From the UHGV virus genome UHGV-1756682: a DNA stretch of 20,317 bases; one strand, 5' to 3'. Position 1 is the first letter of the stretch. Each line of letters opens with the position of its first letter. Shown piece after piece: positions 3,321-6,630 of the stretch. This DNA comes from a virus. The position numbers and the translations under genes are program-made. A model generated the notes under the pieces. It saw nothing but the letters and a program-made list of their open reading frames with translations, did not search any database and was not told the origin of the DNA.

Positions 3321-3350
3321 ATGACAAAAATGAAGGCCGACTATGCGGCC
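3321..3350 (-). terminator. tL1-like terminator candidate after the N-proximal gene
   Basis: Minus-strand sense GGCCG-CATAGT-CGGCC followed by TTCATTTTTGTCAT (stem plus 3335-3339 and 3346-3350). The stop codon of the 207-aa gene lies in the loop. Confidence 0.5.
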
Positions 3351-3964
3351 TCGGAAGGAAGTCCAATCATCTTATTCAAATCTTCTACCCGTAAAGCAGG
3401 AAGTGCTGTACTTGCTTTATCTGCTTCTTTTGGTAGCAACTCTTTGCTTTCAGGCCAAACTTCAATAAGTCGCTTAACTGTTGTGACTGAGTTCAAAGCA
3501 GCCCATACATTTGATTCGATATCCTTTTTCTTGGCTTCAAGTTTTTGTTGCAATGCGCAGATTTCATCAAACCTTTTTGTTATTTCGTGTTCTGCGTCAA
3601 ACATGCATTTATCTTTTTCTGGGGTGGGTAGCAATATATCTTCGCCGTTGCCGTCTTTCCCATATGAATACCAGCCAACCCTTCTGCCAGATACAGTCAG
3701 ATAAATTGAAGTAGAACGAACATCGCATGAGTAAAATGAACATCCCATCTTTTCAAGTTCTTCACTTATAGCTACTAACTTGGATGATAACTGATCCACT
3801 TCCTCAGTTTTCTTTTTCCCGCCAAACGCAACAACTCTGGCGTCAAGTGCAAGCTGATTCTTTAACTTTGTTACTTCTTCAAGTTCAATGAAAACCCCAG
3901 ACTTAATTAAAGCGTTACGAGCGATTTTCTCTTTCATTCTCGTAGTTAAGCGGATTGATGACAT
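3341..3964 (-). CDS. hypothetical protein (207 aa), first gene after N in the PL operon
   Basis: Track ORF 3341..4024; preferred start ATG 3962-3964 with GAGAGG 7 nt upstream. No TM segments seen and no family recognised. Confidence 0.6.
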   Translation of the reverse strand: MSSIRLTTRMKEKIARNALIKSGVFIELEEVTKLKNQLALDARVVAFGGKKKTEEVDQLSSKLVAISEELEKMGCSFYSCDVRSTSIYLTVSGRRVGWYSYGKDGNGEDILLPTPEKDKCMFDAEHEITKRFDEICALQQKLEAKKKDIESNVWAALNSVTTVKRLIEVWPESKELLPKEADKASTALPALRVEDLNKMIGLPSEAA

Positions 3965-3975
3965 ATTAATTCCTC

Positions 3976-4275
3976 TCAAATAAGTGGTTTGCTGCCTAAT
4001 TTCATTTTCTGGCGACCAACACAAGTCACACCAATTTCACTGCGTGGCTTGCGGTAGTAAATACGGTTCTGTTTACGCTCGACTTCTTCTGCCTTCTTGC
4101 AGCGAAGGCTTCCGAGTGATGCTGCTTTGTCTGCTCTGACGCAACCAGAGAGCTTTAGCGCAATTTTTCGCGCCAGTCGCTGCTCTTGCATTGCCTGCTC
4201 ACGTTGAGCCTGTCTGCGTGCTCTGCGGCGATTTCTGGCGTTATCGTCAGCCAGATATGTAATGACTACTGCCAT
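3976..4275 (-). CDS. N: N-type transcription antiterminator
   Basis: C-terminus NRIYYRKPRSEIGVTCVGRQKMKLGSKPLI closely matches lambda N (...TWYSKPGERGITCSGRQKIKGKSIPLI, from memory). N-terminal arginine-rich motif NARNRRRARRQAQREQ. ATG 4273-4275 with GGAGG 5 nt upstream. Confidence 0.85.
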   Translation of the reverse strand: MAVVITYLADDNARNRRRARRQAQREQAMQEQRLARKIALKLSGCVRADKAASLGSLRCKKAEEVERKQNRIYYRKPRSEIGVTCVGRQKMKLGSKPLI

Positions 4276-4381
4276 GTTGACCTCCGATGATTGACTTTGG
4301 CGGTGACGCGCCGGGTGCTTATCTTTCGGTTGCCGTCATGCAGCTGCACTTCACGTCACCCCAAAGCCAACTACTCTTTGG

Positions 4382-4424
4382 TTCCCGCATTTCGGCGGGA
4401 CAATCCCATCAATGTTAAAGAGCC
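4382..4424 (-). promoter_or_regulatory. nutL (boxA plus boxB)
   Basis: Minus-strand sense GGCTCTTTAAC (boxA, plus 4414-4424), a 13-nt spacer, then TCCCGCCGAAATGCGGGAA (boxB hairpin, plus 4382-4400). Both elements recur identically at nutR. Located between PL and N. Confidence 0.7.
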
Positions 4425-4469
4425 TGCCAATCTGTTCCGTTTGGCTTCCAGCGTCCTGCTGATGGCTAA

Positions 4470-4556
4470 AGAATACTGTAGGTATTTTATTGTGTAAATA
4501 CCCAAGGTATTTATTTTTGGTGAAATAATGATAAGCAAATGAATACAAAGGATATT
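4470..4556 (-). promoter_or_regulatory. OL operators and PL promoter
   Basis: Three 15-bp AATAC-N5-GTATT palindromes: OL1 4472-4486, OL2 4497-4511 and a weaker OL3 4542-4556. Candidate PL on the minus strand: -35 TTTACA (plus 4493-4498), 17-bp spacer, -10 TATTCT (plus 4470-4475), overlapping OL1 and OL2. Confidence 0.6.
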
Positions 4557-4643
4557 TATTTTTTCGGTGTCTTCTTGTTCAGTGTTTTTTTATGCGGGAT
4601 ATGTGAAGTGGATCCCGATAGCTATTGCTGCCGGGATTATGGG

Positions 4644-5012
4644 TTAGTCAGCGAAGGTTAAGACGAGAATTACCTTAATGATGTCTGCTACAACAGACAC
4701 GGCCATAGATAAACCAAAGACGATCCAAGCCATAGAGATGTCTTCACTACCATCGTATAGCGTTCCGTAATCACTGGTGTAAGGCGTAAATGTCGCGCCT
4801 TGATACAACAGGTATAAGCTTGAACCATAGAGGATAAATGCAGATATCCATTGTATTGCTATGATCACCAGAATCATGAAACGAGCTGATCTATGCGCCC
4901 AAGCCTGGCTTATTTTTTCTGATAGAGATTTCGCAATAAAAGCATGCGCTAAGCCGTAAATTGTCGATATTGCCAACATCCCCAAAAAGCTTGCTATAGC
5001 GGTTCCAACCAT
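4644..5012 (-). CDS. small integral membrane protein in the rex position (candidate lysogen-expressed exclusion or conversion protein)
   Basis: Track ORF 4644..5033; preferred ATG 5010-5012 with AAGGGG 6 nt upstream, 18 nt after the cI stop on the same strand. Three long hydrophobic segments. No similarity to lambda RexB seen. Confidence 0.6.
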   Translation of the reverse strand: MVGTAIASFLGMLAISTIYGLAHAFIAKSLSEKISQAWAHRSARFMILVIIAIQWISAFILYGSSLYLLYQGATFTPYTSDYGTLYDGSEDISMAWIVFGLSMAVSVVADIIKVILVLTFAD

Positions 5013-5029
5013 ATTCGCCCCTTGCGTGA

Positions 5030-5746
5030 TCAAACCAGCCTTAGTTTTGTCTCAATTGCAACGCCTATAATCTTGCAGTTTCCATTGATTGGCACGAGAG
5101 GCCATGCAGGATTAAGTCCCTTGAGGTATTTATTTCCGCCGTCGATTATCAGCTTCTTGAATGTTGCTTCGTTAGAGTCAGAAAGTTTTGCTATGACCAA
5201 GCTGCCGTTGATCGCCTCCCTTCCGGTATCGAAAAGAACGAATGTTCCCTCTGGAATGCTTAACCCAACCGGTGCCGTCATTGAATCACCTTCCACTTTA
5301 AGCCAGAACGCATTACCTTGAATATGCGCGTCAGACTCAAGCCAAACATCTATGTCTTTAATGGTGTATGGTTCGCATGCTTCACACCACGAGCCAGCCT
5401 GGATACTGCTTAACACCGGATACCTCTTTCCTGCTCTGTATTCCCCTGCATACCTTACGTTGGCATCGCTCTTAAGGCTTTCTGCCTGTTCTGCAACCTT
5501 GGCAGCAATTGACTGGCTAAAATCAGCAATTGAGACTTGCAACAATCGTGCAAAACCAGATGCAACCTCAACGTTTAGCGCGTTTCTGCCATTAAGATAA
5601 TGCCCTACCGCTCCTTGGGTGATACCCAGTTCATCAGCAATTGAGTATTGGGTTATTCCCAATTCTTTCTTTTTTGACTCATACAAAGCCTTAAGCCGCT
5701 TAGCGTCTTCCAGCTGTTCTGTCGTCAGTGATTTTTTATTTTCCAT
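5030..5746 (-). CDS. cI: CI repressor (HTH plus LexA-like S24 autopeptidase domain)
   Basis: N-terminus MENKKSLTTEQLEDAKRLKALYESKKKELGITQYSIADELGITQGAVGHYLNG parallels lambda cI. C-terminal domain has the Ala-Gly site (SSIQAGSW), GDSM serine and FKKL lysine. Confidence 0.9.
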   Translation of the reverse strand: MENKKSLTTEQLEDAKRLKALYESKKKELGITQYSIADELGITQGAVGHYLNGRNALNVEVASGFARLLQVSIADFSQSIAAKVAEQAESLKSDANVRYAGEYRAGKRYPVLSSIQAGSWCEACEPYTIKDIDVWLESDAHIQGNAFWLKVEGDSMTAPVGLSIPEGTFVLFDTGREAINGSLVIAKLSDSNEATFKKLIIDGGNKYLKGLNPAWPLVPINGNCKIIGVAIETKLRLV

Positions 5747-5752
5747 AGCTTA

Positions 5753-5823
5753 ATTCTAATAGCTAAGGTACTTAAACTAAAAATACCCTGAGTATTGATT
5801 GCTTTTAATACCTGTAGTATTCT
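5753..5823. promoter_or_regulatory. OR operators with divergent PRM and PR
   Basis: OR2 5782-5796 AATACCCTGAGTATT, OR1 5807-5821 AATACCTGTAGTATT, weaker OR3 5758-5772. PR candidate: -35 TTGATT 5795-5800, 17-bp spacer, -10 TATTCT 5818-5823. PRM -10 candidate TAGAAT on minus (plus 5753-5758), only about 7 nt from the cI ATG, which suggests a leaderless cI mRNA as in lambda. Confidence 0.6.
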
Positions 5824-5852
5824 TTGTTCATGGTTAATAACGGAGAGTGCAT

Positions 5853-6047
5853 ATGATTCGAATGACACTTGCCGATTACGCCAAAATCCATGGACAGGCT
5901 AAAGCAGCCAGTGACTTTGGTGTAATCCAGTGCGCTATCAGCAAGGCCATTCTGGCAGGCCGTAACATCATGGTTACGGTAAAGCCTGATGGCAGTGTGA
6001 TTGGAGAGGAAGTTCGTCCTTTCCCAAGCAACAAGAAAAACAAATAG
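5853..6047 (+). CDS. cro: Cro repressor
   Basis: [64 protein letters not shown] parallels lambda Cro. ATG 5853 with GGAG 7 nt upstream; the track GTG at 5847 sits inside the SD. Confidence 0.85.
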
Positions 6048-6053
6048 TAACAC

Positions 6054-6098
6054 CGCTCTTTAACAGTCATGGTCCTCATTCCCGCCGAAATGCGGGAA
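6054..6098 (+). promoter_or_regulatory. nutR (boxA plus boxB)
   Basis: CGCTCTTTAAC at 6054-6064, a 15-nt spacer, then TCCCGCCGAAATGCGGGAA at 6080-6098 (stem TCCCGC/GCGGGA, loop CGAAAU). Identical to the nutL elements. Confidence 0.7.
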
Positions 6099-6155
6099 TA
6101 CAACGCGCATAAGTTGATGCTCATAACTTCTTATTTGTTAAGGAAATACTTACAT

Positions 6156-6434
6156 ATGGAACTTACAAGTACTCGCAAGAAAGCGAATGCAATTACAAGC
6201 AACATCCTGAATCGAATTGCTGTACGTGGTCAGCGAAAGGTTGCCGACGCGTTAGGGATTAATGAATCGCAAATTTCGCGATGGAAAGACAGCTTCATCC
6301 CAAAAATGGGAATGCTTCTGGCTGTTCTTGAATGGGGTGTTGAAGACGAGGAGTTGGCGGAACTGGCTAAGCAAGTAGCCAGAATGCTGACAAAAGAAAA
6401 AGCCCCGAAGAACGGCGAATTCTTCGAGGCCTGA
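6156..6434 (+). CDS. cII: CII transcriptional activator
   Basis: ESQISRWKDSFIPKMGMLLAVLEWGV closely matches lambda CII (KSQISRWKRDWIPKFSMLLAVLEWGV). Start ATG 6156 with AAGGAAA 9 nt upstream is preferred over the track start at 6069, which lies in the nutR/tR1 region. Confidence 0.85.
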   Translation: MELTSTRKKANAITSNILNRIAVRGQRKVADALGINESQISRWKDSFIPKMGMLLAVLEWGVEDEELAELAKQVARMLTKEKAPKNGEFFEA

Positions 6435-6468
6435 TGTAGAAAGACTGGATCAATCCACAGGAGTAATT

Positions 6469-6630
6469 ATGACAAAACGTCGTAAGAAATACCAGGAAAA
6501 AGAAGAGATTCGACACCCTGATTCACCTGAGGGATTAGTGGTAGCCGCAGCAAATAACAGGGCGTTCGCAGAGCGCCTTGTTGGTGTTTACAGACTAGCC
6601 AAAGCAGGAGTGAAACATGGGCGTCGTTAA
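6469..6630 (+). CDS. small basic hypothetical protein (53 aa)
   Basis: Hand-translated [59 protein letters not shown] 6469 with AGGAG 5 nt upstream; overlaps the O start by 14 nt. Not in track. Confidence 0.35.
   Translation: MTKRRKKYQEKEEIRHPDSPEGLVVAAANNRAFAERLVGVYRLAKAGVKHGRR

What the first reader, a model, noticed from the sequence alone, without database searches (positions are those of the whole stretch)
4644..5012. Small multi-pass membrane protein co-transcribed with cI in the rex position
Seen in sequence: a 122-129 aa ORF starts 18 nt after the cI stop on the same strand (ATG 5010-5012, AAGGGG 6 nt upstream) and has three long hydrophobic segments. There is no second partner gene before OL. 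Established knowledge: in lambda this slot holds rexA/rexB, expressed from PRM in lysogens and conferring exclusion; other lambdoid phages carry different exclusion or abortive-infection genes there. Inference: a lysogen-expressed exclusion, defence or conversion factor of unknown family. I could not match it to RexB or any named family.
Basis: partly seen in the sequence, partly recalled or inferred. Interest (0 to 1): 0.6.

Follow-up and report, generated by a model that had tools for sequence, protein, structure and literature searches.

The report
Orphan membrane gene hkaS after cI
The ORF is real: it is hkaS, a small three-helix inner-membrane protein of unknown function. It always sits directly behind the repressor gene of HK620-type lambdoid prophages, in a slot where related phages carry anti-phage defence genes, so it is a sensible but untested exclusion candidate and not a surprise.

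Summary
Window 4644-5012 (- strand) encodes a 122-aa protein. It starts 17 nt after the cI stop, has its own AAGGGG ribosome-binding site and three hydrophobic helices, and has no partner gene before OL.

It is gene hkaS of coliphage HK620 (97.5-98% nt identity), annotated 'unknown' since 2001 and filed as PHROG 6534 (unknown function). It is a true orphan: Pfam, NCBIfam, PADLOC, PDB sequence and fold searches all gave nothing, and an exhaustive HMM search of 1.84 billion proteins found one full-length cluster.

The gene is under purifying selection (dN/dS about 0.15). It is intact in 80 of 80 viral contigs and present in 146 of 5426 complete E. coli genomes. In every lineage examined (E. coli, Hafnia, Salmonella, Buttiauxella, metagenomes) it lies 17-21 nt after an S24 repressor.

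In relatives of this repressor the same slot holds RexA, BstA, Hex-like proteins and several PADLOC candidate defence proteins, so the slot is a defence and accessory-gene hotspot.

My best reading, at 0.45, is a lysogen-expressed inner-membrane factor that excludes other phages. Expression and function are inferred, not shown. Rivals are a modulator of the lysis-lysogeny switch (like RexB or Hex) and a host-fitness factor. It is not a member of the RexB, SieA, Imm or holin families.

The parts
4644..5012 (-). hkaS coding sequence: 122 aa, three transmembrane helices, predicted N-terminus out and C-terminus in
   Evidence: ORF list. 97.5-98% nt identity to HK620 hkaS. PHROG 6534, E 2e-77. AlphaFold2 pLDDT 91.4. 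dN/dS 0.15.
5018..5023 (-). Shine-Dalgarno AAGGGG, 5 nt before the hkaS ATG
   Evidence: Read from the sequence. AAGGA is at the equivalent place in the Salmonella and Hafnia loci.
5030..5746 (-). cI repressor (HTH_3 + Peptidase_S24), first gene of the presumed PRM operon
   Evidence: Pfam. HK620 cI annotation. 99.6-100% aa identity in 79 of 79 hkaS-bearing IMG/VR loci that include the upstream region.
5753..5781 (-). Putative PRM: -35 TTTAGT (5781-5776), 17-nt spacer, -10 TAGAAT (5758-5753). The -10 ends 6 nt before the cI ATG and the -35 abuts OR2.
   Evidence: Read from the sequence, by analogy with lambda PRM. Inference only: it falls below the threshold of the promoter scan.
4612..4637 (-). 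Hairpin just after the hkaS stop (AUCCCGG...UCGGGAU, centroid -13.7 kcal/mol), without a U-tract. It is a candidate end or processing site of the cI-hkaS transcript.
   Evidence: RNA fold (z -1.74, weak on its own). An equivalent hairpin is present in the Hafnia and Salmonella loci, and a canonical terminator in Buttiauxella L040.
4542..4556 (.). Third left operator-like site (AATAT-N5-GTATT)
   Evidence: Motif search: 5 hits against 0.5 expected. Conserved in the Salmonella and Hafnia loci.
4472..4511 (.). OL1 (4472-4486) and OL2 (4497-4511), with pL (-35/-10 at 4498-4470 on the - strand)
5782..5821 (.). OR2 (5782-5796) and OR1 (5807-5821)

Best explanation
hkaS is the second and last gene of the repressor operon of an HK620-immunity lambdoid prophage.

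**Inferred from layout.** It would be transcribed with cI from PRM in lysogens, and from PRE during establishment, and translated from its own ribosome-binding site.

**Predicted from the sequence.** The product is a 122-aa integral inner-membrane protein with three helices.
- The N-terminus faces the periplasm.
- A basic amphipathic loop (residues 28-44) and the invariant C-terminus (D110, K113, VLTFAD) face the cytoplasm.
- A Tyr-rich acidic beta-hairpin (residues 75-88) faces the periplasm.

**Inferred function.** It is most likely a single-protein accessory ('moron') factor that protects the lysogen from other phages at the inner membrane. It would do this in one of two ways:
- blocking genome entry, as P22 SieA, T4 Imm and HK97 gp15 do;
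- collapsing the membrane on infection, as a RexB-like effector would.

I lean slightly toward an entry block, because there is no cytoplasmic sensor partner and only about 25 residues are exposed to the cytoplasm.
For: **Real, selected gene.**
- dN/dS is 0.147 at dS 0.71, the same dS as the adjacent cI (0.74), so the two genes diverged together.
- The ORF is intact in 80 of 80 viral contigs.
- It is present in 146 of 5426 complete E. coli genomes.

**Operon layout is conserved in every lineage.** The gene starts 17-21 nt after an S24 repressor and precedes OL and N. This holds in E. coli, Hafnia, Salmonella, Buttiauxella and two metagenome lineages. No promoter or terminator is called between cI and hkaS. 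In Buttiauxella a canonical terminator follows the gene.

**Membrane protein.** Hydropathy and the AlphaFold2 model (pLDDT 91.4) agree. Loop 28-44 carries K28, K33, R41 and R44. Loop 71-92 carries D81, D87, E90 and D91. By the positive-inside rule this gives N-out, C-in.

**The slot is a defence hotspot.** Of 43 ORFs of at least 90 aa found just after cI relatives, about 10 match PADLOC families at E <= 1e-5. These are RexA, BstA (2), PDC-M63A (2), PDC-M03A, PDC-S42, PDC-S43, capP and RmrA.

**Published precedents for PRM-operon exclusion genes.**
- Lambda rexAB, 933W stk and 434 hex (PMC3564112).
- BTP1 bstA, and the cI-N region described as a mosaic hotspot (PMC8585504).
- A small three-helix inner-membrane protein, SieA, is sufficient to block DNA injection (PMC10883804).

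**Travels with the immunity module.** The gene occurs in both a Lederbergvirus (HK620) and a Lambdavirus (HK630), so it moves with the immunity region and not with a virion type.
Against: - There are no expression data and no phenotype anywhere. Function rests on position and architecture alone.
- There is no detectable homology to any exclusion or defence protein.
- There is no sign of positive selection or an arms race. The protein is simply less constrained than cI (omega 0.15-0.2 against 0.01-0.03).
- The best-conserved parts are the cytoplasmic loop and the cytoplasmic end of helix 3 (mean pairwise identity 0.67 and 0.77, against 0.60 for the periplasmic loop). That does not favour a periplasmic target.
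- The gene has never been found apart from this cI clade. That fits a function tied to the repressor as well as it fits defence.
- A PADLOC match of about 23% in the slot also means most cargo there is not known defence.
Confidence: 0.45

Rival explanations
1. Switch modulator tied to its own repressor. HkaS would use its conserved cytoplasmic loop and C-terminus to bind or localise cI, or a protease or RecA-related step. It would tune prophage stability or induction, as reported for 434 Hex and lambda RexA/RexB.
For: - In every one of more than 100 loci, hkaS is adjacent to one cI clade (64-100% aa identity) and shows matching synonymous divergence.
- The cytoplasmic face is the most conserved part of the protein.
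- 434 Hex, in the same slot, lowers spontaneous induction about 30-fold in recA+ hosts (PMC3564112).
- The membrane protein RexB interacts with CI in a two-hybrid assay, and Rex alters induction (bioRxiv 10.1101/2021.04.19.439022).
Against: - Only about 25 residues face the cytoplasm.
- Other members of the same cI clade (65-76% identical) do without hkaS and carry unrelated cargo. Phage P22 has nothing in the slot. So cI does not need it.
- The Buttiauxella homologue sits beside a cI that is only 64% identical and has different operators.
Confidence: 0.15
2. Host-fitness (lysogenic conversion) factor. A small membrane protein that changes envelope physiology, for example tolerance to bile, acid, antimicrobial peptides or pore-forming colicins, or that modulates a host inner-membrane transporter or sensor. 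It would have no direct role against phages.
For: - It is maintained intact in 2.7% of complete E. coli genomes from human, pig, poultry and wastewater sources.
- Selection is moderate and purifying, with no arms-race signature.
- Three-helix proteins of about 110 aa are the architecture of E1/Ia-type colicin immunity proteins (my own knowledge; no homology found).
- The slot also holds non-defence-looking membrane cargo: DUF1275 and an MscS-like channel.
Against: - There is no homology to any such factor.
- The characterised genes in this slot have phage-related phenotypes.
- Distribution is strictly limited to prophages.
Confidence: 0.2
3. RexB-type effector of a two-component system. HkaS would be a channel that depolarises the cell when triggered by a sensor encoded elsewhere in the prophage or host.
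For: - It has the same position as rexB.
- It is multi-pass, with an invariant intramembrane D110/K113 pair and invariant Q54, which could line a pore in an oligomer.
- RexA occurs in the same slot in a related prophage (L016).
Against: - No RexB or RexA profile match.
- Three helices, not four.
- No second gene in the operon in any lineage.
- No gene is constantly linked to it apart from cI.
Confidence: 0.08
4. Non-functional or mis-called ORF in the 3' untranslated part of the cI transcript.
For: No experimental evidence of a protein; the family is tiny.
Against: - dN/dS is 0.15 or less.
- There are no nonsynonymous changes at dS 0.13 between two Salmonella alleles.
- The 122-codon length, start codon and SD are conserved across alleles only 54-60% identical.
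- The AlphaFold2 model is confident.
Confidence: 0.02

Closest known systems
HK620 HkaS (AAK28867; PHROG 6534)
   Same: This is the same gene. It has 97.5-98% nt identity, the same length, and the same position between cI and OL.
   Different: There are a few substitutions. W55 in this window replaces the G55 found in most alleles. No function has ever been assigned.
Lambda RexB (with RexA)
   Same: An inner-membrane multi-pass protein encoded after cI in the PRM operon and ending before OL. RexA occurs in this very slot in a related prophage.
   Different: RexB has four helices with both termini in the cytoplasm, needs RexA, and has its own pLIT promoter. HkaS has three helices, no partner and no profile match.
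P22 SieA
   Same: A small prophage-expressed inner-membrane protein with three predicted helices. On its own it is sufficient to block DNA injection (PMC10883804).
   Different: SieA is 162-164 aa and carries the cytoplasmic motif FxRYPxEAxxFNK. It lies between genes 16 and 9 of P22-like virion modules. The hhalign probability against HkaS is 0.25%.
Phage 434 Hex
   Same: A single gene directly after a cI that is 52% identical to this one, co-transcribed from PRM. It excludes P22 and affects prophage stability (PMC3564112).
   Different: Hex is a 134-aa protein with a signal-peptide-like N-terminus and no further membrane helices. It is unrelated in sequence.
BstA (BTP1) and other cargo of the cI-N hotspot
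   Same: Same genomic slot and the same presumed promoter (PMC8585504). BstA was found here after cI relatives (L019, L054).
   Different: BstA is a soluble protein of about 300 aa that acts on DNA in abortive infection and has an aba self-immunity element.
T4 Imm and HK97 gp15 (membrane proteins that block DNA entry)
   Same: Small inner-membrane proteins that block genome entry without a partner (cited in PMC10883804).
   Different: No sequence relationship: there were no Pfam or PHROG hits at E <= 1 other than PHROG 6534 and two chance-level hits to other unknown-function families. They sit in different genomic locations.

Membership tests
HkaS / PHROG 6534 | Full-length profile match and near-identity to HK620 hkaS | tested here: met
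   PHROG 6534 E 2.1e-77 over residues 1-122 of 122. 97.5% nt identity to AF335538 hkaS.
cI-operon accessory gene (rex-slot moron) | Same strand as cI, immediately downstream, with its own SD and no promoter or terminator in between. The transcript ends before OL. | tested here: met
   17-nt spacer and AAGGGG. No sites called between the genes. Hairpin at 4612-4637. Canonical terminator in the Buttiauxella homologue.
cI-operon accessory gene (rex-slot moron) | The slot is variable among phages with related repressors | tested here: met
   80 loci with cI relatives carry RexA, BstA, PDC families, Hex-like proteins, membrane proteins or nothing.
cI-operon accessory gene (rex-slot moron) | Expressed in the lysogen from PRM | not testable with these tools
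   No transcript data are available. A putative PRM is at 5753-5781, by inspection only.
Lambda RexB (PF15968) | Sequence match to the RexB profile | tested here: not met
   No Pfam family at E <= 1. No PADLOC family at E <= 10.
Lambda RexB (PF15968) | Four transmembrane helices with both termini cytoplasmic, and a rexA partner upstream | tested here: not met
   Three helices. cI is directly upstream, with no rexA.
P22 SieA | Conserved cytoplasmic motif FxRYPxEAxxFNK and sequence similarity | tested here: not met
   The motif is absent from the sequence. hhalign probability 0.25%.
P22 SieA | Located between the homologues of P22 genes 16 and 9 | tested here: not met
   The gene lies between cI and OL. 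P22 sieA is at 36811-37305, next to gene 16.
T4 Imm (PF14373) and SieB (PF14163) | Profile match | tested here: not met
   No Pfam hit at E <= 1. No PHROG hit other than 6534 and two chance-level ones.
434 Hex | Homology to Hex (signal-peptide N-terminus, CWIV motif, about 134 aa) | tested here: not met
   The Hex translation shares no architecture with HkaS. Hex homologues found after other cI relatives (L068, L077) are distinct from HkaS.
Class I holin | Three helices N-out/C-in, plus a charged C-terminal tail, located in the lysis cassette | tested here: not met
   The topology is similar. But the protein ends ...VLTFAD with no tail, sits in the immunity operon, and has no holin profile hit.

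The most novel reading that the evidence does not exclude
HkaS could be a minimal one-protein system that links the cell membrane to the lysis-lysogeny switch. In this reading a three-helix protein has co-evolved with its repressor and senses envelope perturbation, such as another phage puncturing the membrane. Through its invariant cytoplasmic loop and C-terminus it would then either depolarise the cell or alter cI stability. One 122-aa protein would combine what lambda divides between RexA and RexB.
Probability: 0.1. Interest if true: 0.7.

Novelty: new member of a known kind. Interest (0 to 1): 0.35.

Why it matters
If hkaS excludes phages, it would add a very small, partner-less membrane protein to the set of prophage defences. 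It comes from a family with no relatives among 1.84 billion cluster representatives, yet it is present in about 1 in 37 complete E. coli genomes, including Stx2c-converting phages.

It is easy to test: it is a single 369-bp gene, and K-12-infecting phages that carry it are available (mEpX2, HK630, HK140).

The survey of the slot behind this repressor clade also gives a short list of uncharacterised cargo worth screening. Even so, a positive result would extend a known pattern and would not change how prophage defence is understood.

Tried and rejected
- **Family searches.** Pfam, NCBIfam and PADLOC gave nothing. PHROGs returned only its own unknown-function family.
- **Word-indexed search of 5.8 billion proteins.** It found 11 clusters, all enterobacterial and all hypothetical.
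- **Exhaustive profile search of 1.84 billion representatives.** It found one full-length cluster, one fragment, and a repeat hit in a 5949-aa Rhs-like protein that I judge to be chance.
- **Rfam on 3900-6500.** No match.
- **SieA relationship.** Rejected.
- **Relationship to another 122-aa three-helix protein after cI in Ewingella (L085).** Rejected.
- **The 40-aa antisense ORF at 4539-4661 as a partner.** Rejected, because it is not conserved.
- **The 129-aa TTG start.** Rejected.
- **Positive selection.** Not supported. The low HkaS identity next to a near-identical cI (67% against 98%) comes with saturated synonymous divergence.
- **'The periplasmic loop is the functional face'.** I dropped this idea after region-wise conservation showed the cytoplasmic face is at least as conserved.
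- **Literature.** No paper on hkaS function was found. The first search on 'hkas' returned only irrelevant hits.

Full report
**What is there**

The window's left immunity region reads, on the - strand:
- cro on the opposite strand (5847-6047);
- OR;
- cI (5030-5746; HTH_3 + Peptidase_S24);
- a 17-nt spacer containing AAGGGG;
- a 122-codon ORF (4644-5012);
- a hairpin;
- three operator-like sites and pL;
- nutL;
- an N-like antiterminator (3976-4275).

**Identity**

Megablast against GenBank phages gives 97.4-98% identity over the whole 4300-5100 stretch in 13 phage records: phi296, phi367, mEpX2, HF4s, HZ41, HK620, HK630 and HK140, some deposited twice. Three more records, vB_EcoP-611R6 and two Stx2c-converting phages, cover 90-93% of the stretch.

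In the HK620 record the ORF is gene hkaS, product 'unknown'. It lies between cI and the annotated tIMM and OL3-OL1. HK630 annotates it as 'HkaS protein'. So the gene has been catalogued since 2001, with no function assigned.

Full-text searches found no paper that discusses it.

**Is it a real gene?**

Yes.
- Against the Hafnia allele (81% aa identity), dN/dS is 0.147 at dS 0.71. The adjacent cI has dS 0.74 and dN/dS 0.030, so the two genes diverged together.
- Two Salmonella alleles differ at dS 0.13 with no amino-acid change.
- All 80 IMG/VR loci recovered carry an intact 122-codon ORF. There are 25 protein variants, mostly conservative substitutions.
- 146 of 5426 complete E. coli genomes carry it at 95-99% nt identity, always full length and always chromosomal.
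- The ATG start is fixed by conservation of M-V/I/M-G, by an in-frame TAA directly upstream in the Salmonella allele, and by an SD-like AAGGA/AAGGGG in all lineages.

**The protein**

Hydropathy shows three segments. AlphaFold2, with only six sequences, gives pLDDT 91.4 and pTM 0.78. The model has:
- helices at 2-29, 41-74 and 89-121;
- a short helix at 31-38;
- a small beta-hairpin at about 78-86.

Loop 28-44 carries K28, K33, R41 and R44. Loop 71-92 carries D81, D87, E90 and D91 and five tyrosines. By the positive-inside rule (established knowledge) the N-terminus and the Tyr-rich hairpin face the periplasm, while loop 1 and the C-terminus face the cytoplasm.

Across six alleles down to 54% identity the invariant positions include:
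- the QAW-H-ARF stretch entering helix 2;
- Q54;
- Y67, Y70, Y82, G83, Y86 and G88 in the periplasmic cap;
- W96;
- D110 and K113 inside helix 3;
- the C-terminal VLTFAD.

Region by region, the cytoplasmic end of helix 3 (0.77) and the cytoplasmic loop (0.67) are at least as conserved as the periplasmic loop (0.60). Conservation therefore does not point to one face.

**Family**

It is an orphan.
- No Pfam, NCBIfam or PADLOC match.
- Only PHROG 6534, of unknown function.
- 11 clusters in a 5.8-billion-protein collection, all Enterobacteriaceae.
- An exhaustive profile search of 1.84 billion representatives found a single full-length cluster, a fragment, and a nine-fold repeat hit in a giant Rhs-like protein. 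That hit matches only the hairpin motif, and I treat it as chance.
- No PDB sequence hit.

**Context across lineages**

Every homologue whose neighbourhood I could read sits 17-21 nt after an S24 repressor and before OL and N. This covers:
- Salmonella (four contigs);
- Hafnia and metagenomes (four contigs);
- two further divergent alleles;
- a Buttiauxella genome, where the repressor is only 64% identical, the operators differ, and a canonical terminator follows the gene;
- 79 of 79 IMG/VR loci that include upstream sequence, with cI 99.6-100% identical.

The gene occurs in a Lederbergvirus (HK620) and a Lambdavirus (HK630). It therefore travels with the immunity module and not with a virion type.

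**What else occupies this slot**

I fetched 80 genome loci with relatives of this cI (40-76% identity) and listed the first ORF after each. The slot is hypervariable. It holds:
- RexA (L016; PF15969, E 1e-96);
- BstA (L019, L054);
- PDC-S42, PDC-M03A (HipA-like) and PDC-M63A;
- an NYN nuclease;
- an HATPase protein;
- Hex-like proteins that overlap the cI stop (L068, L077);
- a lipoprotein;
- DUF1275 and MscS-like membrane proteins;
- tiny hydrophobic ORFs;
- or nothing.

About 10 of 43 ORFs of at least 90 aa match PADLOC families at E <= 1e-5. P22 itself has an empty slot.

This agrees with the literature:
- The cI-N interval is a known mosaic hotspot that houses rexAB and bstA (PMC8585504).
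- 434 hex and 933W stk are co-transcribed with the repressor and exclude other phages (PMC3564112).

**How it most likely works**

Shown:
- it is a selected gene;
- it is a three-helix membrane protein by prediction;
- it is embedded in the repressor operon layout;
- it occupies a slot enriched for defence genes;
- it has no partner gene.

Inferred:
- Transcription from PRM. A TTTAGT-17-TAGAAT element at 5781-5753 abuts OR2 and ends 6 nt before the cI ATG, a lambda-like geometry, but it falls below the scan threshold.
- Expression in lysogens.
- A protective function at the inner membrane.

The closest working model is P22 SieA. SieA is a three-helix inner-membrane protein that, on its own, blocks DNA injection (PMC10883804). 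HkaS is not a SieA family member, however:
- it lacks the FxRYPxEAxxFNK motif;
- it has a different location;
- hhalign probability is 0.25%.

A RexB-like depolarising role is the other membrane-level option. HkaS fails every RexB membership feature except position. I give 'phage exclusion at the membrane' 0.45 overall.

**Rivals**

- **Switch modulator (0.15).** The same slot also encodes proteins reported to tune the genetic switch. Hex lowers spontaneous induction about 30-fold (PMC3564112). RexA and RexB alter induction, and RexB binds CI in a two-hybrid assay (bioRxiv 10.1101/2021.04.19.439022). The unbroken linkage of hkaS to one cI clade and its conserved cytoplasmic face fit such a role.
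- **Host-fitness factor (0.2).** The lack of any arms-race signature is consistent with this.
- **RexB-type effector needing a partner (0.08).**
- **Spurious ORF (0.02).** Effectively excluded.

**Verdict**

The gene is a long-annotated orphan. If it does defend, it is a new member of a known kind: prophage repressor-operon accessory genes and membrane exclusion proteins. Interest is moderate to low. It is cheap to test and fairly common in E. coli, but it would not surprise a specialist.

Noticed in passing
window 4542-4556 (compare 4472-4486, 4497-4511, 5782-5796, 5807-5821): The operator motif AATAC-N5-GTATT occurs five times with at most one mismatch, against 0.5 expected. The fifth site (4542-4556) lies 45 bp beyond OL2 and is conserved in the Salmonella and Hafnia loci. 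The HK620 record instead places OL3 at about 4518-4534, and places 'tIMM' over this very site. The third left operator and the terminator may be mis-annotated there.
   Followed up: partly
window 3341-3964 (- strand): The gene right after N encodes an Nmad5 (nucleotide modification associated domain 5) protein (PF18757, E 5e-71). It replaces hkaQ and hkaP of HK620. It has no PADLOC match.
   Followed up: partly
window 4612-4637 and 4590-4612 (- strand): Three segments (AUCCCGG, UCGGGAU, AUCCCGC) after the hkaS stop could form two alternative hairpins. Neither is followed by a U-tract. The first hairpin is conserved in Hafnia. How the cI-hkaS transcript ends is unclear: it could be Rho-dependent, a processing site, or a roadblock by repressor bound at 4542-4556.
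   Followed up: partly
protein P0014 (5949 aa, Rhs/YD-repeat protein from the representative library): Nine repeats containing 'ATFQTYSSGYTTLYEW' match the HkaS periplasmic hairpin (residues 71-96), with a summed E of 8e-7. This is probably a convergent beta-hairpin motif, not homology.
   Followed up: no
L013 2109-2513 (lambda imm434 hex); L068 and L077, ORF overlapping the cI stop: 434 Hex begins with a signal-peptide-like N-terminus (MIRIAALLSILLTTSANSEC...). It has homologues in the same slot in Erwinia dacicola and Citrobacter prophages. An exported protein is hard to reconcile with the published model that it blocks RecA-mediated repressor cleavage in the cytoplasm.
   Followed up: no
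L038 3385-4611; L018 3332-4111; L085 2991-3356: Other membrane cargo sits directly after cI relatives: an MscS-like mechanosensitive channel (409 aa), a DUF1275 protein (260 aa), and an unrelated 122-aa protein with three hydrophobic segments and a zinc ribbon. Membrane proteins recur in this slot.
   Followed up: partly
L003 versus L177 (Salmonella-type loci): cI is 98% identical in protein while the adjacent HkaS is 67% identical. Nucleotide identity falls in steps from the 5' end of cI (98-100%) to its 3' end (about 80-86%) to hkaS (58-72%). This suggests recombination breakpoints inside cI.
   Followed up: partly
window 4539-4661 (+ strand): A 40-aa hydrophobic antisense ORF overlaps the hkaS 3' end and the hairpin. 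Some phage records appear to annotate an extra hypothetical protein here. It is cut to 10-12 codons in the Salmonella and Hafnia loci, so it is probably spurious.
   Followed up: yes
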